Shown here: piece after piece, positions 42,707 through 62,200 of the stretch | Position numbering within the stretch: position 1 is the first letter of the stretch | Layout of the letters: each line of letters begins with the position of its first letter | DNA from: a virus | Taxonomy: Duplodnaviria > Heunggongvirae > Uroviricota > Caudoviricetes | DNA: 64,000 bases | IMG/VR virus record: IMGVR_UViG_2939127364_000001 | Direction: 5' to 3' (one strand) | The notes under the pieces: generated by a model | Database searches by the model: none | What the model saw: the letters and a program-made list of their open reading frames with translations, nothing else | Told to the model about the DNA's origin: nothing | Translations under genes and position numbers: made by a program

Positions 42707-43126
42707 ATGAAAGCAAAAAACTTAATGATTCTAATGCTAACCACGTCACTAATTGGGTGTTCGTCTTCGTCTATATCTATTTCAAAGGCAAAGGATGCAC
42801 CTCAAAGCAGAATATTTAAATATCAAACACCACATGAGTCTAGTCTAACAATAGTTCGAGACAAAGGGCTGGTTGGTTCTGCATGTAACGCTTCCATTTT
42901 CATCAATGGAGAAACGGCTGCAAAGCTAGAACCTGGTGAAAAAGCAACTTTCTACCTTAACGAAGGAGAGTGGATCGTTGGGACATCAATTGAAAGTTCA
43001 GGTCTTTGCGCATTTAACCCCTCCAGGATGGAACGAGAAATAAAGCTAAAGCAGGGCGACTCGAAAACATATCGGGTTTTCACTACCTGGGATGGTACAA
43101 TGGACATATTGCCAACCACTTTATAA
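42707..43126 (+). CDS. Lipoprotein (superinfection-exclusion candidate)
   Basis: 139 aa; signal peptide with lipobox LTTSLIGCSSS. Confidence 0.6.
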   Translation: MKAKNLMILMLTTSLIGCSSSSISISKAKDAPQSRIFKYQTPHESSLTIVRDKGLVGSACNASIFINGETAAKLEPGEKATFYLNEGEWIVGTSIESSGLCAFNPSRMEREIKLKQGDSKTYRVFTTWDGTMDILPTTL

Positions 43127-43130
43127 TGAT

Positions 43131-43652
43131 ATGACGACGAAAGACATCACCTACGGCATACCGGCTGAAGTCTGGCCGCGAGACTACGAACATGCAGAGC
43201 GCACCTTGCTCTTCTGGCGGAGTGCAAAATTTCCTGTAAGAGTCACTCTCGAAGACGGCCAAGTGTTTTGCATGTATGTCTACGGGCTATTGAGCGCAAG
43301 AAATAAGCTGAACCTCACACCAGATCCGCTTAGCAACACAAATCGTATAAGGCTCCCTCTTGAGCGCATTAGCACAATTGAGTCGGGCATAGAAGAGGTT
43401 GACACTTCATTCACAGGTCGACTAACGCTAAACAATGAACAGATGGTTAATCAGCCATCACGTCGTGACTTTTTTAAGATATGTCGTCAGGCTTACCAAA
43501 ACGGCAAATCTATAAGGGTCTACATGGCAGACGGTCGCGAAATTGAGGGAACGTCAGATGGCGTTGACGCCTGTCTAGTCACACTTAAGTTGGAAGACGG
43601 TAGAAAAATACTTATTTTCTTCGATTGGGTTGAACGAATCCTTCCGTTTTAA
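43131..43652 (+). CDS. Hypothetical protein
   Basis: Track ORF 43092..43652; start set at ATG 43131, just after the lipoprotein stop. Confidence 0.4.
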   Translation: MTTKDITYGIPAEVWPRDYEHAERTLLFWRSAKFPVRVTLEDGQVFCMYVYGLLSARNKLNLTPDPLSNTNRIRLPLERISTIESGIEEVDTSFTGRLTLNNEQMVNQPSRRDFFKICRQAYQNGKSIRVYMADGREIEGTSDGVDACLVTLKLEDGRKILIFFDWVERILPF

Positions 43653-43949: not shown

Positions 43950-44600
43950 ATGGCTAACATTATCATTTCTAAAAAATCCATCATTGAAGCTGCTGCCATT
44001 GTATCCGACGAGCTGCGCGAAAAAGCAGATCTGGCAACTCAAACATATAACGAACATTATAAAAATGGTACGCACACAAAAGCAGACAAAGCAAACATGC
44101 AAGCTGCGACCACTAAACTTGCTTACTTCATCAACAACGTTGTGAACGCAGTAGAAGACGAAAAATTATGCTCTGTTTTCTACTATGCGATCAAAGCAAG
44201 CAAACAAGCGCCAGAAGTATTTTTCCGTGATGCAATGACTAATAGTTATTCACTGGAAAAACTGGTCTATCTGGTCAAATCAATTAAAGCTGGAAAGTGT
44301 GTTTATTCCGTCGCTGATATGTCCGGATCTCGTGTATTCGCATTAATCGATATGATTAACGACGAGATCGACACGTTCACCAATGGCGCTGTTTTCGATT
44401 TAATGAATGAAGCGAAAAAAGCGTGCGAAATTAAATTGGACGCTGGCTATACTCAAGCCAACCAGTTGATCAATCTTTGCGAACGTCTTGGACTTGTTGA
44501 AAAAGTCAAAGGAGCTGGGAGCGCGAAAGCTGGTACTCAGCAATATCGCTTCATTAAAAATGATTTCTATAACTATCTGGCTGATGCTTTCAAAGCGTAA
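43950..44600 (+). CDS. Hypothetical protein (insulated single-gene unit)
   Basis: 216 aa; long AT-rich upstream region; RBS AAGGAA; terminator immediately downstream. Confidence 0.55.
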   Translation: MANIIISKKSIIEAAAIVSDELREKADLATQTYNEHYKNGTHTKADKANMQAATTKLAYFINNVVNAVEDEKLCSVFYYAIKASKQAPEVFFRDAMTNSYSLEKLVYLVKSIKAGKCVYSVADMSGSRVFALIDMINDEIDTFTNGAVFDLMNEAKKACEIKLDAGYTQANQLINLCERLGLVEKVKGAGSAKAGTQQYRFIKNDFYNYLADAFKA

Positions 44601-44613
44601 TTAATGGAATCTT

Positions 44614-44634
44614 GCGCCCACTATGGGCGCTTTT
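44614..44634 (+). terminator. Terminator hairpin GCGCCCACTATGGGCGC, copy 1
   Basis: gcgccca-cta-tgggcgc followed by tttt. Confidence 0.6.
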
Positions 44635-44647
44635 AAGGAGCTTAATC

Positions 44648-44878
44648 ATGTTTATTCTTATCGCTGGCGTTAACGTGCGCAATGAATATTTTGTTAATCG
44701 CATCGCTGGGATCGCTGGTTACGCTGGGCGCGCAGTCGAGCTTATAAATGAAACAACGCGCAAAATTGACTTATTGAGCGACCAGGAGCGAAAAAAAGCA
44801 GACGTGAACGACGCTGATATTTTTTTAATGTTAAAAGCGTTTGTAGAAATGGGATTTAAAATCAGTTTACACAAATAA
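44648..44878 (+). CDS. Small hypothetical protein (76 aa) flanked by duplicated terminator
   Basis: ATG at 44648 preceded by AAGGAG; the track start at 44612 lies inside the terminator hairpin. Confidence 0.45.
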   Translation: MFILIAGVNVRNEYFVNRIAGIAGYAGRAVELINETTRKIDLLSDQERKKADVNDADIFLMLKAFVEMGFKISLHK

Positions 44879-44884
44879 AATCGA

Positions 44885-44907
44885 GCGCCCACTATGGGCG
44901 CTTTTTT
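44885..44907 (+). terminator. Terminator hairpin GCGCCCACTATGGGCGC, copy 2
   Basis: Identical 17-bp hairpin followed by tttttt. Confidence 0.6.
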
Positions 44908-44931
44908 CGTTTCCAATACTTCCACCATAAC

Positions 44932-44954
44932 GCGCCAATGATGGCGCTTTTTTT
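44932..44954 (+). terminator. Third tandem terminator
   Basis: gcgcca-atga-tggcgc followed by ttttttt. Confidence 0.55.
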
Positions 44955-45330
44955 ATTGTCTTTGACTCACACCAACAACATAAAAATAAGCGCCAAAATA
45001 ACGCCATAGACGTGCTTTTATATCCTTACCAGTACATACCCATTACTTAGCGCATTAACGCGCTTAAATCGCGTTATATTGCGTTATGGTGTATGGTTAA
45101 TCATTGGCTTTTATTCTTGCTATGTGATCCGCGTTTAATTGTCGGCGCGGATCGACATTTTGTTTTGTTCCGTATCCGCTCGCGTATTATGTGCGCGTGA
45201 TTTTTCACATAATCACACCACTTAATCACATATGTGATTACGCTACGAAAGAAATCTGGATGTCTCAGGCGACGAAAGTCATCATAATTTTCCCCGCTCA
45301 CCTGTCCGACAACCGCTGGTTGGATTCCAC

Positions 45331-45491
45331 CAGCTTCCCGATGTTTTTTCTACATAAAGGCGAATGCAGCCGTTTCCCGAAAAAATCCTGGCCGTTTCCC
45401 GTCGGCTCATGAATACGTTCCTTGCCGTTTCTGAAAATTTCCCTGCGGCAGCTGGTGGCTATAGAGAAAGGGCCGTTTCTGGCCCTCTTCT
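45331..45491. repeat. Iteron-like cluster 1 (GCCGTTTC(C/T) repeats)
   Basis: 4-5 direct copies (cagccgtttcccg, ggccgtttcccg, tgccgtttctg, ggccgtttctgg), first two 22 bp apart; contains GCTGGTGG. Confidence 0.5.
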
Positions 45492-45494
45492 CAG

Positions 45495-45977
45495 TTACAC
45501 GCCATCAAGGATGTGGATGCGGTTGCTTGCGTATACATTCAGCATAAAGTTAGCGCAAAACAGTTTCCATGTATCAACGCCAGCGGTATACGTAATGTTT
45601 TTGCATTTAATTGCATTGTTGGCGATCCGCATCCCCTGCGATACTGCTTCATCGTCGGAAAATTTGAACGACGATTGAGTTTTAATCCAGACAGAAATCT
45701 GCGTAGCGAACTCAATCAGCTTGGACTGGCAGAATCGCCCGGAGCGCACCGGAAAGACGAACGTTCCGAATCCAGAATTTACCACATACGCTTTCTCAAA
45801 TACCCGCGAGTAACGACGATTGCAAATGATGTCGCGTGCAATAATGCATTTTTCTTGTGCTGACAGTTCTACCGTCTCATTGTCGCGCCATGCACCAAGT
45901 ACTCGTTTTTCAATGTCAGAGAACGTTACAGCGATATTGCCATGTGCGGGTGCGTTTACAGTAGCGATAAAATTCAT
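45495..45977 (-). CDS. Hypothetical early protein
   Basis: 160 aa; motif A 20 nt upstream of the ATG. Confidence 0.5.
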   Translation of the reverse strand: MNFIATVNAPAHGNIAVTFSDIEKRVLGAWRDNETVELSAQEKCIIARDIICNRRYSRVFEKAYVVNSGFGTFVFPVRSGRFCQSKLIEFATQISVWIKTQSSFKFSDDEAVSQGMRIANNAIKCKNITYTAGVDTWKLFCANFMLNVYASNRIHILDGV

Positions 45978-45996
45978 GATTAATTCCTTATCGTAA

Positions 45997-46013
45997 ATAA
46001 CAAATTGTTTTCT
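45997..46013. promoter_or_regulatory. Motif A upstream of 45495..45977
   Basis: ataacaaattgttttct. Confidence 0.4.
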
Positions 46014-48413: not shown

Positions 48414-48499
48414 CAATGGCGTAAATAATACCAGTAAGAAAACGGCTACAAAGCATATTGATCAGGTGCATGAGCGATATGCAGGTTCCTCCCTGCGGC

Positions 48500-48529
48500 T
48501 ATAGAGAAATTAAGCCAGCAATGCTGGCT
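48500..48529 (-). terminator. Terminator after 48540..48869 gene
   Basis: agccagc-aat-gctggct followed by a U-rich stretch in - sense. Confidence 0.45.
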
Positions 48530-48897: not shown

Positions 48898-49230
48898 TGA
48901 TGGTGTTATTATCGCAATAACGCACAGGCGAAAAAGGATTTTATTCCGGTGAATGTGGTTTTGGCAGTGAGTTTTCAGGTTCAGTACCGAGTACACTTTT
49001 TACATTATTCTGATTTAGTGGCCGAAGGTGGCTGGTGGGCAGAATAATCCTCTCCCCGAAAACCTACTGAAATCGATTGTGACCCGTTGGCTGTCTGGCA
49101 CAATTACGCTGTAACTGGGCATTCAGAGGGAATCCAGCGGTAAGTAAGTTCGCCTGCACGTGAGCGCCTCTCTTCTTCCCGCACATTACAGGTGGGTAGC
49201 CGCAACTCTCCCTATCGCTATACCGGTACG

Positions 49231-49372
49231 CCGCCGTTCCTGAACCGGCATCGAGCCTTTTCCCGAAATCCACACAGGCAACTCGACCGTTTCCCTGAAA
49301 ATCCCCAGCCGTTCCCCGAAGGCAACCCAGCCGTTTCTGTAGCGGGATGCAGCCTTTTCCCTGTATGGACCG
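49231..49372. repeat. Iteron-like cluster 2: six direct repeats at ~22-bp spacing
   Basis: Units starting near 49233, 49254, 49286, 49308, 49329 and 49351 (gccgttcc, agccttttcc, accgtttcc, agccgttcc, agccgtttc, agccttttcc); intervals 21, 32, 22, 21, 22. Confidence 0.55.
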
Positions 49373-49479
49373 AAGGCTAACCGTAGGGGTGTTACGGGGG
49401 ATAAAATCAGGAGTTGAATAAATACGAAAAAGGAGGCGACACCCCTCCTTCCCTCCCCACTTATACATACCTGTCTTGT

Positions 49480-50330
49480 TCGCTATACATGTTGTGTTTT
49501 CTTCGTGTTTTATCTGTCTCAACCTCTCTATAGGCGTTAATGCTCACTCCTTCCAGAATGTTCTATACGGCGACTATTTCTGTTGGTGAATTGGGTGTGT
49601 CGTTCTCTCTGTCGGTGTAAATGGTTTCGTTCGTTTTGCGGTGGTTCTTCTGTGGGGTGTTCTCGTCGTTTTGGTGATTGTTCTTCTCCGTCTATGGAGT
49701 AATGGCAGGTGGGCGATTCCTTTCGTTATTGTGTTTGAGTTGTTTGTCTGGAGTGTGTGAAAGGCTTTTGTAGTTATTCGTGTATTGGGTAATGGCGTTT
49801 CCCGTGATTGTTATGTTTCGTGTCTTTTGGGATTGAGAGAAACCTTGCGGTTACAGGCTTCGTTGGGGTTTCAGTGATTCTGGTGTTTCTTCGCTGTTTG
49901 GGTAATGGCGTGTCGTGGGTATCGCGCGTATGAATGTTTTCGGATTGCCTGTGAAAGTTAGGTTGGTTGTCCGGTAGCCTGGGAAGAAGAGGTGGGTCTT
50001 TTCGGTAGCCTGCCATAAAGAGGTTGGTTGTTTTGGGGAATGACATGTGTGTTATTTAGTTGTTTTGTTATGCCTGAAAATAAGTTGTTTATATGGTTGT
50101 GTAACGCAACGGGAACGATTTTGAGCGTGTGTTTTTGTTGGTAGTGTGTTGGATCGTCTGTGGTGAAAATTGGACGCTGTGGCGCTGTCTGCTGCGTAGA
50201 ATTACGGGTATAAGCAGTGATGTGTGAAAACGTCAATTTTTTAGACCAAATCGGGTGAAAGCGTTGATGTTTCGTTGATCTGTTATTCAGTTGTTTTCTT
50301 ATTGGTATAAACAACTATAACCTATTGATA
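49480..50330. other. GT-rich strand-asymmetric, apparently non-coding tract (~0.85 kb)
   Basis: + strand G+T about 80% by eye; no credible ORF on either strand; internal direct repeats (cggtagcctg... at 49972 and 50002; gtaatggc three times). Confidence 0.5.
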
Positions 50331-59258: not shown

Positions 59259-62200
59259 ATGACTCATCAAACACATACCATTGCTGAATCCAATAACTTT
59301 ATCGTTCTTGATAAGTACATCAAAGCTGAGCCAACAGGCGACAGCTACCAGAGCGAATCGGACCTGGAACGTGAACTGATTCAAGACCTGCGGAATCAGG
59401 GCTATGAATTTATTTCGGTAAAATCACAGTCAGCGATGCTGACCAACGTTCGGGAACAGCTTCAGAGCCTCAATGGTGTGGTGTTTAATGACAGCGAGTG
59501 GCGGCGTTTCACGGAGCAGTATCTGGACAACCCGAGCGATGGCATTCTGGATAAGACCCGTAAAATCCATATCGACTATATTTGCGACTTTATTTTTGAT
59601 GACGAGCGACTTGAGAACATCTATTTGATAGATAAAAAGAATCTCATGCGCAATAAGGTGCAGATTATCCAGCAGTTTGAACAGACGGGTTCTCATGCTA
59701 ACCGTTATGACGTCACGATCCTGGTTAATGGCTTACCACTGGTACAAATCGAACTGAAAAAGCGCGGCGTGGCGATTCGTGAGGCTTTCAACCAGATACA
59801 TCGTTACAGTAAAGAGAGTTTTAACAGCGAAAACTCCCTGTTTAAGTATCTGCAACTGTTTGTCATTTCTAACGGCACCGATACCCGTTATTTTGCCAAC
59901 ACAACAAAGCGCGATAAAAACAGTTTTGACTTCACCATGAACTGGGCGAAATCAGACAACACGCTGATTAAAGACCTCAAAGATTTTACCGCTACCTTTT
60001 TCCAGAAACATACTCTGCTTAATGTTCTGGTGAACTACAGCGTTTTTGACAGCAGTCAGACGCTACTGGTGATGCGACCGTACCAGATTGCTGCCACCGA
60101 GCGCATTCTGTGGAAAATTAAGAGCTCCTTTACAGCGAAGAACTGGTCAAAACCGGAAAGCGGAGGGTATATCTGGCACACTACCGGTTCTGGTAAAACC
60201 CTCACCAGCTTTAAAGCCGCGCGTCTGGCAACAGAGCTGGACTTTATTGATAAAGTCTTCTTCGTGGTCGACAGGAAAGACCTCGATTACCAGACCATGA
60301 AGGAATATCAGCGTTTTTCGCCAGACAGCGTCAACGGCTCGGAAAATACCGCAGGCCTTAAACGAAATCTGGATAAGGACGATAACAAAATTATCGTCAC
60401 CACTATTCAGAAACTTAATAACCTGATGAAAGCAGAAAGCGACCTGCCTGTATACAATCAGCAAGTGGTGTTTATATTTGATGAATGTCACCGCAGCCAG
60501 TTTGGAGAAGCGCAGAAAAACCTGAAGAAGAAATTCAAACGCTATTATCAGTTTGGTTTTACCGGCACACCTATTTTCCCGGAAAACGCCTTAGGCTCAG
60601 AAACGACCGCCAGCGTATTTGGTCGTGAATTGCATTCGTATGTAATTACCGATGCGATTCGTGATGAAAAAGTGCTCAAATTCAAGGTGGACTACAACGA
60701 TGTGCGGCCACAGTTTAAATCTTTAGAGACAGAAACCGACGAGAAAAAACTGAGTGCGGCTGAAAATCAGCAGGCATTTCTTCATCCCATGCGTATACAG
60801 GAAATTACGCAATATATTCTGAATAACTTCCGCCAGAAGACCCACCGTACTTTCCCAGGTTCCAAAGGCTTTAATGCCATGCTGGCAGTGAGTAGCGTGG
60901 ATGCCGCGAAAGCCTATTACGCGACGTTTAAACGGTTACAAGAGGAAGCAGCTAATAAATCGGCTACCTATAAACCGCTGCGTGTTGCAACAATCTTCTC
61001 CTTTGCCGCCAATGAAGAACAAAATGCCATTGGTGAAATTTCCGATGAAACTTTTGATACCAGCGCAATGGACAGCAGTGCTAAAGAGTTTCTTGACGCT
61101 GCAATTCGTGAGTATAACAGCTATTTTAAAACTAACTTCAGCACCGACAGTAACGGTTTTCAGAACTACTATCGTGATTTAGCCCAACGGGTTAAAAATC
61201 AGGATATCGATCTGTTAATTGTCGTTGGGATGTTTTTAACCGGCTTCGACGCTCCAACATTGAACACGCTATTCGTCGATAAAAACTTGCGTTTTCACGG
61301 CCTGATGCAGGCATTCTCCCGTACCAACCGCATTTATGACGCTACTAAAACCTTCGGTAACATCGTCACTTTTCGGGATCTGGAACGCTCAACCATTGAT
61401 GCCATAACGCTGTTTGGTGATAAAAATACTAAAAATGTGGTGTTAGAAAAGAGTTATGCTGAGTATATGGAAGGCTTTACAGATGCTGCCACTGGTGAAG
61501 CTAAACGCGGCTTTATGGCAGTAGTTTCAGAACTGGAACAACGGTTCCCTGACCCTGCCAGTATTGAAAGTGAAAAAGAGAAGAAAGACTTCGTAAAACT
61601 GTTTGGTGAATACCTGCGTGCCGAGAACATCCTGCAAAACTATGATGAATTTGCCACGCTGAAAGCCCTGCAACAAATCGATCTTAGCGATCCTGTTGCG
61701 GTAGAAAAATTCAAAGCAGAACATTATGTGGATGATGAAAAGTTCGCTGAATTGCAAACAATTCGTCTCCCTGCTGAACGCAAGATTCAGGATTATCGTT
61801 CTGCCTATAACGATATTCGCGACTGGCAGCGCCGTGAGAAAGAAGCTGAGAAAAAAGAGAAATCAACCACTGACTGGGATGACGTAGTTTTTGAGGTCGA
61901 TTTGCTGAAGTCTCAGGAAATAAACCTGGATTATATCCTTGGACTGATTTTCGAACACAACAGACAAAATAAAGGCAAGGGCGAAATGATCGAAGAGGTC
62001 AAACGCTTAATTCGTTCAAGCCTGGGGAACCGGGCGAAAGAGGGCCTGGTGGTCGATTTTATTCAGCAAACGAACCTGGATGATTTACCAGACAAAGCCA
62101 GTATCATTGAGGCATTCTTTACGTTTGCTCAACGCGAACAGCAACGTGAAGCAGAAGCATTGATAAAAGAAGAAAATCTCAATGAAGAGGCGGCGAAACG

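What the first reader, a model, noticed from the sequence alone, without database searches (positions are those of the whole stretch)
44960..45300. Repeat-dense non-coding hub with TGTGAT/ATCACA and GCGTTAT motifs upstream of iteron cluster 1
The region contains ttatgtgcgcgtgatttttcacataa (TTATGTG...CACATAA inverted repeat), three ATCACA copies within 30 bp, and direct repeats tcgcgttat / ttgcgttat. Together with the adjacent iterons this looks like a control region (origin, immunity operators or a switch), but no ORF is obviously paired with it.
Basis: seen in the sequence. Interest (0 to 1): 0.4.

Follow-up and report, generated by a model that had tools for sequence, protein, structure and literature searches.

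The report
Conserved non-coding control gap with iterons
The flagged repeats lie in a 615-base gene-free gap, conserved across the SSU5/pHCM2/pMT1 phage-plasmid family, that combines transcription terminators, a promoter-like element and an array of protein-binding-type repeats; it is probably a protein-bound control site, possibly a second replication origin, but its function is untested.

Summary
The motifs are real and at the stated coordinates. The window is an SSU5/pHCM2-like phage-plasmid, 98% identical to Escherichia phage Cyrano.

The finding sits in a 615-bp non-coding gap (44879-45494) where a rightward operon and a leftward array of small genes converge. The gap is kept in 783 plasmids, including S. 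Typhi pHCM2 and Y. pestis pMT1, and in relatives whose neighbouring protein is only 31-33% identical.

It has no conserved ORF, no Rfam match and no conserved RNA structure beyond terminators. Selection acts on short blocks: two tandem terminators, AGTACATACCCATTAC, a -10-like TAtnAT box with TTG 19 bp upstream, ATCTGGATG, TCTACATAAAGGC, and four same-orientation CCGTTTCC iterons.

A second array of the same iteron lies 3.9 kb away. The two bracket a variable small-gene cassette.

They lie in segments that drift at about the neutral rate.

A conserved winged-helix protein is encoded just upstream.

Best guess (about 0.35): an iteron-type, protein-bound cis element, origin-like or replication control, fed by a regulated promoter. 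Rivals are loop or insulator regulation, an RNA role, a centromere, or spacer.

I found no description of it in the literature I could search. Interest is moderate.

The parts
43950..44600 (+). Gene for a 216-aa protein (phrog_1513): helical N-terminal part plus C-terminal winged helix-turn-helix. Candidate binder of the gap or the iterons.
44883..44912 (+). Terminator T1 (GAGCGCCCACTATGGGCGCTT plus a T run). An identical copy lies at 44614-44634.
   Evidence: Terminator scan. Conserved in all relatives. Strong alifold signal, z about -18. Duplicate copy found.
44929..44957 (+). Terminator T2 (AACGCGCCA-loop-TGGCGC plus TTTTTTT), in tandem with T1.
   Evidence: The stem is invariant while the loop varies between lineages.
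44983..45006 (.). 12-bp tandem AAAATAA(G)CGCC x2. On the - strand it reads as a weak hairpin plus T run (45005 to 44989), a terminator-like site.
   Evidence: Tandem Repeats Finder. A terminator-like site on the - strand is found at the equivalent place in the window, pHCM2 and a Klebsiella plasmid.
45031..45047 (.). Conserved block AGTACATACCCATTACT, unique in the genome.
   Evidence: 82-94% identity to three divergent lineages, against 34-58% at four-fold degenerate sites. Present in 51 of 64 distinct gaps. A single copy in the whole Cyrano genome.
45069..45087 (+). It is GCGTTTTA in pHCM2-type relatives.
   Evidence: D11. Copy number varies among relatives, including a longer run in one and a 10-bp loss in pMT1. 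The surrounding segment is 43-53% identical between types.
45122..45170 (+). Strong hairpin GATCCGCG...CGCGGATC followed by ACATTTTGTTTTG. A third terminator-like site on the + strand, present only in the E. coli lineages.
   Evidence: 11 pairs. Single-strand DNA fold -11.3 kcal/mol, z -4.3. The hairpin is not present in the pHCM2 type.
45160..45190 (+). Promoter-like element: TTGTTT, 19-bp spacer, TATTAT. It points rightward into the iterons.
   Evidence: Read from the sequence. The hexamer is TATCAT (23), TATTAT (20) or TATGAT (9) among 64 gaps, and TACAAT or TATCAT in distant relatives. Only positions 3 and 4 vary. TTG is aligned 19 bp upstream in both main types. It was not called by the 16-18-bp-spacer scan. 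No transcript data.
45187..45240 (.). Operator-like and lineage-specific.
   Evidence: TCACATAATCACA is in 42 of 64 gaps, the inverted repeat in 21 of 64 and the perfect palindrome in 3 of 64. 41-47% identity to other types. One relaxed DnaA-box match, TTTTTCACA, which is 1 of 7 in the 108-kb genome.
45251..45268 (.). Conserved block GAAATCTGGATGTCTCAG (ATCTGGATGG in relatives).
   Evidence: 72-83% identity across types. Retained in L095 and recognisable in L098 and L096.
45343..45362 (.). Conserved block TTTTTCTACATAAAGGCGAA, immediately left of the iterons.
   Evidence: 74-85% identity across types. A single copy in the Cyrano genome.
45366..45490 (+). Iteron cluster 1: four same-orientation GCCGTTTCY cores (45369, 45391, 45424, 45472; spacing 22, 33, 48 bp) plus the TTCCCTGCGGCAGCTGGTGG box (45439-45458). 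The last core lies in the hairpin GGGCC/GGCCC (45469-45484) at the 3' end of the 160-aa gene.
   Evidence: The core is conserved in all relatives, including L102, whose neighbouring protein is 33% identical. The hairpin stem shows a two-sided change, GGGCC/GGCCC versus GGGGC/GCCCC.
45495..45977 (-). 160-aa gene (phrog_1641) that ends at the gap. The first gene of the bracketed small-gene cassette.
49230..49370 (+). Iteron cluster 2: six copies of GCC(G/T)TT(T)CC(C), spaced 21-31 bp, in the same orientation as cluster 1. It lies just past a - strand terminator (49430-49455).
   Evidence: Non-coding, because indels among relatives are not multiples of three. Present 3-4.6 kb from cluster 1 in L001, L002, L017, L028, L029, L042, L047, L054, L095 and L102.

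Best explanation
The flagged repeats are the middle of a composite, conserved intergenic control region of an SSU5/pHCM2-type phage-plasmid.

Shown:
- Two operons converge on a gap of about 615 bp.
- The gap is sealed by tandem terminators on the left and by a terminator hairpin on the right.
- It has no conserved ORF and no conserved RNA structure beyond the terminators.
- It contains short blocks under purifying selection.
- It ends in an array of four same-orientation CCGTTTCC repeats spaced by whole helical turns.
- The same repeat forms a second array 3.9 kb away, and the two arrays bracket a variable cassette of small genes.

Inferred:
- The arrays are binding sites for a conserved element-encoded DNA-binding protein. 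The best candidate is the winged-helix protein encoded about 280 bp upstream of the gap.
Those boxes would be lineage-specific operators.

The mechanism I commit to: an iteron-type, protein-bound cis element that serves replication. It would be a second (lytic) origin or its control site, activated by transcription from the adjacent promoter. The distal array would act as a paired site, as crr does for ori in phage P4 or incA for incC in P1.

The general claim (a protein-bound cis-regulatory DNA element) is more likely than the specific claim (a replication origin).
For: Conservation:
- The gap is kept in position and size in 783 plasmids and 12 phage records.
- It is also kept in relatives whose neighbouring protein is 31-33% identical.
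- Block identities of 0.76-0.88 compare with 0.34-0.58 at four-fold degenerate sites of the flanking genes.

Iterons:
- The core is conserved in all lineages, always in one orientation, in two arrays 3-4.6 kb apart.
- Spacings are 22/33/48 bp in cluster 1 and 21-31 bp in cluster 2.
- In the whole 108-kb Cyrano genome, only the RepA origin and this locus have four or more clustered copies of a 7-mer in non-coding DNA.

Candidate binder:
- The adjacent 216-aa protein has a confident winged-helix domain.
- Its recognition-helix stretch is the most conserved part of the family. This parallels the conservation of the iteron core.
- The gene stays within about 500 bp of an iteron even in a lineage where an inversion has split the gap.

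Promoter-like box: the -10-like box varies only at positions 3 and 4, and TTG sits at a constant 19 bp upstream.

Module neighbours are replication and recombination genes, namely a UvsW-like helicase and two ParB_N proteins.

Against an RNA or a protein product: no Rfam hit, no consensus structure, no conserved frame.
Against: - No Rep-type initiator, helicase loader or primase gene adjoins the arrays.
- The 160-aa neighbour has no recognisable fold.
- There is no consistently AT-rich unwinding region. The left part of the gap has 0.43-0.52 GC, about the locus average, in SSU5-type elements.
- DnaA-like boxes are weak and not conserved.
- The site lies where transcription converges. That position would suit a terminus or boundary better than an origin.
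- Cumulative GC skew is monotonic and gives no origin signal.
- The element has T4-like recombination proteins (UvsW, UvsX/RecA, UvsY, gp32-like, SbcCD). It may therefore not need a dedicated lytic origin.
- Winged-helix folds are generic, and the top matches are transcription regulators.
- The promoter has a poor 19-bp spacer and no transcript evidence.
- The binder is unproven.
Confidence: 0.35

Rival explanations
1. Transcriptional boundary or looping element. The two iteron arrays bind a regulator, either the winged-helix protein or a ParB_N protein. That regulator insulates or silences the bracketed cassette of small, individually promoted genes by looping or roadblock. The flagged boxes are operators of a local promoter.
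For: - The arrays bracket a gene cassette whose content varies between lineages.
- Both arrays lie immediately past terminators on the - strand.
- The best fold matches of the 216-aa protein are ArsR/MarR-type regulators.
- The site is a convergence point of transcription.
- Palindromes overlap and follow the -10-like box.
Against: - The 216-aa gene (CYRAN_113) is not among the Cyrano genes listed as expressed in lysogens of LF82 (PMC9928086). A lysogenic silencer role is therefore not supported.
- Direct repeats at spacings of about 22 bp are more typical of iterons or centromeres than of operators.
- The arrays lie 300-450 bp from the nearest cassette promoter.
Confidence: 0.25
2. Mostly neutral spacer. 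The only functions are the terminators at both edges. The interior repeats are slippage products and remnants, and the conserved blocks reflect recent shared ancestry or recombination.
For:
- The 10-bp repeat is copy-number polymorphic.
- Whole sub-segments are deleted in viable plasmid lineages: the TCACA segment in the Klebsiella KP1517 type, and a stretch of about 20-30 bp in E. coli types.
- Repeat enrichment is modest.
Against: - The gap length is held at about 580-745 bp across very deep divergence.
- Several blocks are 80-90% identical where four-fold degenerate sites are 34-58% identical.
- The iteron core and the two-array layout persist where the neighbouring protein is only 33% identical.
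Confidence: 0.15
3. RNA-based function. One option is a + strand transcript from the -10-like box that acts as an antisense or convergent-transcription regulator of the 160-aa gene. The other is a - strand small RNA that ends at the weak terminator near 44989. The - strand reading of the arrays is rich in GGA motifs and could titrate an RNA-binding protein.
For: - Conserved -10-like box on the + strand.
- Conserved terminator-like site on the - strand at 45005 to 44989 in three lineages.
- A single promoter-like site on the - strand in the window (CGGACA-16-TATGAT, 45308 to 45281).
- G-U-compatible changes in small GNRA-capped hairpins of the pHCM2 type, read directly.
Against: - No Rfam family.
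- No consensus structure beyond the terminators on either strand.
- The - strand promoter is not conserved.
- None of the three pMT1 small RNAs listed by a Y. pestis RNA-seq survey (sR082, sR083, sR103) lies at this locus (PMC3770706).
- The arrays lie downstream of terminators on the - strand.
Confidence: 0.12
4. Partition centromere. The iteron arrays are centromere-like sites bound by the winged-helix protein (as TubR binds its repeats) or by the ParB_N proteins.
For: - Direct-repeat arrays, sometimes in two clusters, are typical of centromeres such as R1 parC and pB171 parC1/parC2 (my own knowledge).
- TubR winged helices are among the fold matches.
- Two ParB_N genes lie about 5.6 kb away in all lineages.
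Against: - No partition NTPase adjoins the arrays or the 216-aa gene.
- The element carries separate ParA-type genes elsewhere.
- ParB-type sites are usually palindromic.
Confidence: 0.08

Closest known systems
Phage P4 ori / crr (short type I iterons bound by the alpha protein at two sites about 4.5 kb apart)
   Same: A short repeat core (8-9 bp) is reiterated in one orientation at two non-coding sites a few kb apart on a phage-plasmid-like element.
   Different: There is no alpha-type primase-helicase here, the binder is unknown, the core sequence is unrelated, and replication function is untested. The comparison rests on my own knowledge of P4.
P1 / F plasmid replicons (incC-repA-incA; incB-repE-incC iteron clusters)
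   Same: Two clusters of helically phased direct repeats flank coding DNA. The same element also has a classical RepA/IncFIB origin with 21-bp-spaced iterons (Cyrano 61776-61842), which gives an internal comparison.
   Different: - No Rep_3/RepA-type gene lies between or beside the clusters.
- The repeat cores are shorter (9-15 bp versus 19-22 bp).
- There is no conserved DnaA box or GATC-rich AT tract.
Centromere repeat arrays bound by small DNA-binding proteins (TubR-tubC, R1 ParR-parC, pB171 parC1/parC2)
   Same: Arrays of direct repeats are paired with a winged-helix candidate binder, and two clusters are possible.
   Different: There is no adjacent TubZ, ParM or ParA motor gene.
Rho-independent terminators at convergent operon ends
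   Same: T1, T2 and the hairpin of the 160-aa gene are ordinary intrinsic terminators. They explain the outer roughly 120 bp of the gap.
   Different: They do not explain the roughly 500 bp between them, the conserved internal blocks, or the iterons.

Membership tests
Iteron-type replication origin (plasmid or phage, Rep-dependent) | Three or more direct repeats in one orientation, phased by helical turns | tested here: met
   Four GCCGTTTCY cores at 22, 33 and 48 bp. Cluster 2 has six copies at 21-31 bp.
Iteron-type replication origin (plasmid or phage, Rep-dependent) | An initiator (Rep) gene adjacent to or overlapping the iterons | tested here: not met
   Neither Pfam nor PHROGs gives a Rep or initiator family for the nine neighbouring proteins. 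The only DNA-binding candidate is a generic winged-helix protein.
Iteron-type replication origin (plasmid or phage, Rep-dependent) | An AT-rich unwinding element next to the iterons | tested here: inconclusive
   The lowest 100-bp GC is 0.34 in the window and 0.39 in pHCM2. The left part of the gap is at about the locus average in SSU5 types. It is clearly AT-rich only in the distant L102, at 0.30-0.44 versus 0.55.
Iteron-type replication origin (plasmid or phage, Rep-dependent) | DnaA boxes or other host-factor sites | tested here: inconclusive
   One relaxed match, TTTTTCACA, in the window lineage. It is not conserved in other lineages.
Iteron-type replication origin (plasmid or phage, Rep-dependent) | Supports replication in vivo | not testable with these tools
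   This needs cloning or marker-frequency experiments.
Small regulatory RNA gene | Promoter plus intrinsic terminator delimiting a short transcript, with conserved structure or seed | tested here: inconclusive
   A -10-like box on the + strand and a weak terminator on the - strand are conserved, but they lie on opposite strands. There is no consensus structure and no Rfam hit.
Small regulatory RNA gene | Detected transcript | tested here: not met
   A Y. pestis RNA-seq survey lists three pMT1 small RNAs, none at this locus (PMC3770706). The survey covers only one host and the plasmid state.
Phage immunity operator region | Palindromic operators flanking or overlapping the promoters of an adjacent repressor gene | tested here: not met
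   Palindromes exist in the window lineage only. The annotated repressor, CYRAN_45, lies about 57 kb away. No repressor gene adjoins the gap.
Protein-coding gene (missed ORF) | An open frame conserved among relatives | tested here: not met
   ORFs differ in frame, start and length between lineages. Indels are not multiples of three.

The most novel reading that the evidence does not exclude
The two CCGTTTCC iteron arrays, the promoter-bearing gap and the adjacent winged-helix protein would together form a previously unrecognised second replicon of the SSU5/pHCM2/pMT1 phage-plasmid family: a lytic origin with a distal paired site. It would be distinct from the IncFIB RepA origin and would use an initiator of a new family, one that has only 23 clusters at 50% identity among 1.8 billion proteins.
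Probability: 0.25. Interest if true: 0.6.

Novelty: new variant of a known kind. Interest (0 to 1): 0.42.

Why it matters
SSU5-type phage-plasmids are common in clinical Enterobacteriaceae. Examples are pHCM2 of S. Typhi, pMT1 of Y. pestis, and many Klebsiella and E. coli plasmids, some carrying resistance genes. I found no description in the searchable literature of how they switch from plasmid replication to lytic replication, or of how their early-gene cassette is controlled.

A conserved, unannotated cis element with a paired iteron array and a candidate dedicated binding protein gives concrete, testable targets: deletion, ChIP and origin mapping. If it proves to be only a boundary or spacer, the result is still useful for annotation. 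About 600 bp that annotation pipelines leave empty, or fill with spurious ORFs such as CYRAN_104 over cluster 2, would be explained.

Tried and rejected
- Rfam at permissive thresholds, on the gap and on 47.5-51.5 kb: only chance-level matches.
- Sliding RNAalifold on 13 divergent gaps, both strands, with column-shuffle controls: only the two terminators stand out.
- Missed small gene: rejected because the frames are not conserved.
- DnaA-box cluster: one relaxed match in the window lineage, not conserved.
- Inspection by eye for Xer (dif/cer), IHF, CRP, LexA, Fur, sigma-54 and P1 parS box motifs found no convincing or conserved match. The only scan run was for the relaxed DnaA box TTWTNCACA.
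- A long inverted repeat around the conserved ACATACCCATTAC core: the fold is not better than shuffles (z -0.96) and there is no consensus pairing.
- Homology between the flanks of clusters 1 and 2: only the iterons are shared.
- GC skew and composition as origin indicators: uninformative.
- Fold of the 160-aa neighbour: no match. BFVD search with the 216-aa model: only generic winged-helix hits.
- Packaging site: rejected, because terS lies about 8.9 kb away.
- Literature searches (SSU5 with iterons or origin; pHCM2 or pMT1 small RNAs): nothing on this locus.
- An attempt at genome-wide mismatch-tolerant repeat clustering timed out. It was replaced by an exact k-mer version.

Full report
**What the window is.** The region 44600-46000 is 98.1% identical to Escherichia phage Cyrano, the pLF82 phage-plasmid. 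It is 96.6-97.3% identical to three other E. coli phage-plasmid records, and more distantly related to Klebsiella phage-plasmids and Salmonella phage SSU5. The 621-bp stretch 44880-45500 matches 783 plasmid records, nearly all typed non-mobilizable IncFIB. They include pHCM2 of S. Typhi CT18 and pMT1 of Y. pestis. The window is therefore part of an SSU5/pHCM2-type phage-plasmid.

**Checking the observation.**
- TTATGTG (45187-45193) and CACATAA (45206-45212).
- ATCACA at 45212-45217 and 45225-45230, and TGTGAT at 45233-45238. The last two form a perfect 18-bp palindrome, TAATCACATATGTGATTA.
- CGCGTTAT and TGCGTTAT, 10 bp apart, at 45069-45087.

Three of the five TAATCACA and four of the twelve GCGTTAT in the 64-kb window lie here. 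Repeated 7-mers are about twice the shuffle expectation (1-2% of shuffles reach the observed count). The region is in the top 1.3% of 341-bp tiles for inverted 7-mers. So the enrichment is real but modest. The neighbouring iteron cluster is much stronger.

**Setting.** The finding lies in a 616-bp gap (44879-45494).
- On the left, a rightward gene set ends. It runs from a UvsW-like helicase through a FljA-like regulator and a 216-aa protein to a small 76-88-aa gene.
- On the right, a leftward array of small genes ends with a 160-aa gene.
- The same convergent gap, 580-650 bp long, is present in pHCM2, pMT1 and in Klebsiella, Citrobacter, Enterobacter, Buttiauxella and divergent E. coli plasmids.
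- It is also present in two more distant SSU5-like contigs.
- It persists, at 598 and 744 bp, in two deep relatives whose 216-aa homologue is only 33% and 31% identical.

**It is not a gene and not a known RNA.**
- ORFs inside the gap differ in frame, start and length between lineages. Alignment gaps are not multiples of three.
- Rfam gives only chance-level matches.
- A sliding RNAalifold scan of 13 divergent versions, on both strands with column shuffles, finds strong consensus structure only at the two left-hand terminators.
- A Y. pestis RNA-seq survey lists three small RNAs on pMT1, none at this locus (PMC3770706).

**What is conserved.** I used the identity of four-fold degenerate sites in the two flanking genes as a neutral yardstick. 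Between the window and pHCM2 or a Klebsiella plasmid it is 0.58-0.61 for the 216-aa gene and 0.32-0.34 for the 160-aa gene. Identity of the window to three divergent lineages (L006, L067, L038) is:

| Segment | Identity |
|---|---|
| Terminators | 0.80-0.91 |
| AGTACATACCCATTACT (45031-45047) | 0.82-0.94 |
| -10-like box region (45176-45192) | 0.65-0.76 |
| GAAATCTGGATGTCTCAG (45251-45268) | 0.72-0.83 |
| TTTTTCTACATAAAGGCGAA (45343-45362) | 0.74-0.85 |
| Iteron region (45363-45490) | 0.76-0.78 |
| GCGTTAT segment (45048-45120) | 0.43-0.53 |
| TCACA / palindrome segment (45193-45250) | 0.41-0.47 |

They are at about the neutral level.

Among 64 distinct versions of the gap:
- TCCCTGCGG occurs in 63.
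- The ACATACCCATTA core occurs in 51.
- TCACATAATCACA occurs in 42.
- The TTATGTG...CACATAA repeat occurs in 21.
- The perfect palindrome occurs in 3.

The TCACA segment is deleted in a common Klebsiella lineage and absent from the more distant relatives. The GCGTT(T/A)TA unit is a 10-bp tandem repeat whose copy number varies: one relative has a longer run and pMT1 has lost 10 bp. The window lineage differs sharply from its closest E. coli relatives only in 45190-45340. The flanks are about 97% identical and the middle about 55%, yet the middle is still alignable through short anchors. This indicates either a swapped or a fast-evolving middle module.

**Anatomy, left to right.**
1. T1 (44883-44912) and T2 (44929-44957) are canonical + strand terminators. 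T1 has an identical copy at 44614-44634.
2. A 12-bp tandem, AAAATAA(G)CGCC, reads on the - strand as a weak hairpin plus T run. It recurs at the same place in pHCM2 and Klebsiella.
3. The conserved ACATACCCATTAC core.
4. The polymorphic 10-bp repeat.
5. In E. coli lineages only, a strong hairpin plus T run at 45122-45170, with a single-strand DNA fold z of -4.3.
6. A promoter-like element: TTGTTT (45160-45165), a 19-bp spacer, then TATTAT (45185-45190). The hexamer is TATCAT, TATTAT, TATGAT or TACAAT across lineages. T1, A2, A5 and T6 are fixed and only positions 3 and 4 vary. TTG is aligned 19 bp upstream in the main types. This is the variation pattern expected of a sigma-70 -10 box, but the spacer is poor and there is no transcript evidence.
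7. The TTATGTG/CACATAA repeat overlaps the -10-like box. The TCACA repeats and the palindrome would lie at about +10 to +43 of such a transcript. That is an operator-like position.
8. Two conserved blocks, then four GCCGTTTCY iterons (45369, 45391, 45424, 45472) and a fully conserved TTCCCTGCGG box.
9. The last iteron sits in the hairpin at the 3' end of the 160-aa gene. Its stem shows a two-sided change between lineages, GGGCC/GGCCC versus GGGGC/GCCCC.

**The second array and the module.**
- A second array of the same repeat, six copies spaced 21-31 bp in the same orientation, lies at 49230-49370, just past another - strand terminator.
- It is non-coding, although Cyrano and PhiR41_1 annotate ORFs across it.
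- It is present 3-4.6 kb from cluster 1 in every relative for which enough sequence was available. This includes the deep relative L102, with eight and nine cores in its two arrays.
- Only the iterons are shared between the flanks of the two arrays.
- In the whole Cyrano genome, only two non-coding loci hold four or more clustered copies of a 7-mer: the RepA origin (TCTATAGTGG x4 at 21 bp, 61776-61842) and cluster 1.
- The arrays bracket a cassette of small genes, each apparently with its own promoter. The gene content differs between lineages.
- In one lineage (L096) an inversion has split the gap. The -10-like box and one iteron stay with the 160-aa homologue and now lie upstream of the 215-aa gene.

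**Candidate binding protein.**
- The 216-aa protein (43950-44600) has no Pfam family and no sequence relative in the PDB.
- Its AlphaFold2 model (pLDDT 83.5) has a helical N-terminal part and a C-terminal winged helix.
- The family is tiny: 23 clusters at 50% identity in 1.8 billion proteins. In every context I examined it sits beside this gap.
- Across relatives down to 31% identity, its most conserved stretch is D-x-G-Y/F-T-Q-x-N/D-Q...E-R-x-G, the predicted recognition helix. This parallels the conservation of the iteron core.
- This is correlation, not proof of binding.
- The 160-aa neighbour folds confidently but matches nothing. It is absent from the deep relatives.

**Interpretation.** The safest statement is this. 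The finding is the variable middle of a conserved, composite, non-coding control region whose constrained parts are terminators, a promoter-like box, three short blocks and an iteron array paired with a distal array.

I commit to a protein-bound iteron element serving replication. It would be a second or lytic origin, or its control site, activated by the adjacent promoter, with the distal array as partner. The analogies are P4 ori/crr and P1 incC/incA. My confidence is about 0.35.

Evidence against this reading:
- There is no Rep-type gene nearby.
- There is no consistent AT-rich tract.
- There are no conserved DnaA boxes.
- The site is at a point of convergent transcription.
- GC skew is uninformative.
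- The element has a T4-like recombination toolkit that might make a dedicated lytic origin unnecessary.

Rivals:
- A looping or insulating regulator of the bracketed cassette (0.25). This is weakened because the 216-aa gene is not among the genes listed as expressed in LF82 lysogens (PMC9928086).
- Spacer with terminators only (0.15).
- An RNA role (0.12).
- A centromere (0.08).

**Novelty.** None of the papers I could search mentions this locus, its iterons or the 216-aa protein. In kind it is an iteron-type cis element. The unusual points are the missing recognisable initiator, the pair of arrays bracketing a variable gene cassette, and the very narrow protein family next to it. I rate it a new variant of a known kind, of moderate interest.

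Noticed in passing
window 49230-49370: A second array of six CCGTTTCC-type iterons, in the same orientation as cluster 1. It is conserved in relatives and non-coding, although public annotations place ORFs over it (CYRAN_104 and a PhiR41_1 CDS).
   Followed up: partly
window 49480-50300 (- strand): A stretch of about 820 nt that is 70% A+C on the - strand (A 40%, C 30%, G 14%, T 16%). It ends at a terminator (49455 to 49430) just before iteron cluster 2 and contains three GCCATTACCCAA repeats. A similar A/C-rich stretch exists in the distant locus L096 (2100-2900). It could be a long non-coding or leader RNA. There is no Rfam match.
   Followed up: partly
window 2435, 5362, 35878, 35903, 41090, 45999, 47492, 48399, 48883, 51692, 51739: The motif AGAAAACAWNTNGTT occurs 11 times against 0.33 expected by chance. 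Where I looked (45999, 48399, 48883), it lies about 10-25 nt upstream of the start codon of a small gene, and its core is partly palindromic (AACA-N3-TGTT). It may be an element-wide operator, promoter or translational motif. It is not present in the flagged gap.
   Followed up: partly
window 44614-44634 and 44885-44905: Identical 21-bp terminator copies (GCGCCCACTATGGGCGCTTTT) flank the small gene at 44649-44878 (phrog_1585). That gene is missing in some relatives (Buttiauxella, L102, L103), as if it were an inserted mini-cassette.
   Followed up: no
window 43092-43652 (+): A gene for a FljA-like 'repressor of phase-1 flagellin' (PF03614, E 1.8e-68). It is conserved in most SSU5-type relatives, two genes upstream of the gap. 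FljA is known as an mRNA-binding translational repressor (my own knowledge).
   Followed up: no
window 45441-45469 and 48484-48509: The sequence just past two - strand terminators is repeated: TCCCTGCGGC followed by GGCTATAGAGAAA next to the hairpin.
   Followed up: no
L096 5460-6010 and 1900-3480: In one SSU5-related lineage (a Logan metagenome contig), an inversion places the small-gene cassette on the same strand as the 215-aa gene and splits the gap. Only one iteron remains beside the 158-aa homologue.
   Followed up: partly
Cyrano OV696614 60160-60620 and 61776-61842 (outside the window; L094): Classical RepA (IncFIB) origin iterons, TCTATAGTGG x4 at 21-bp spacing, upstream of repA. Further repeat groups (TATCCACT, CTACAGTGG) lie downstream, in an incC/incA-like layout. 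They are unrelated in sequence to the CCGTTTCC iterons.
   Followed up: no
window 45122-45170: A strong hairpin with two GATC sites in its stem (GATCCGCG...CGCGGATC), followed by a T run. It is present only in E. coli lineages. pHCM2-type relatives instead carry GATC-containing direct repeats (CGTGATCGTCTGGCGATATCTGGCGACGTGATCC).
   Followed up: partly
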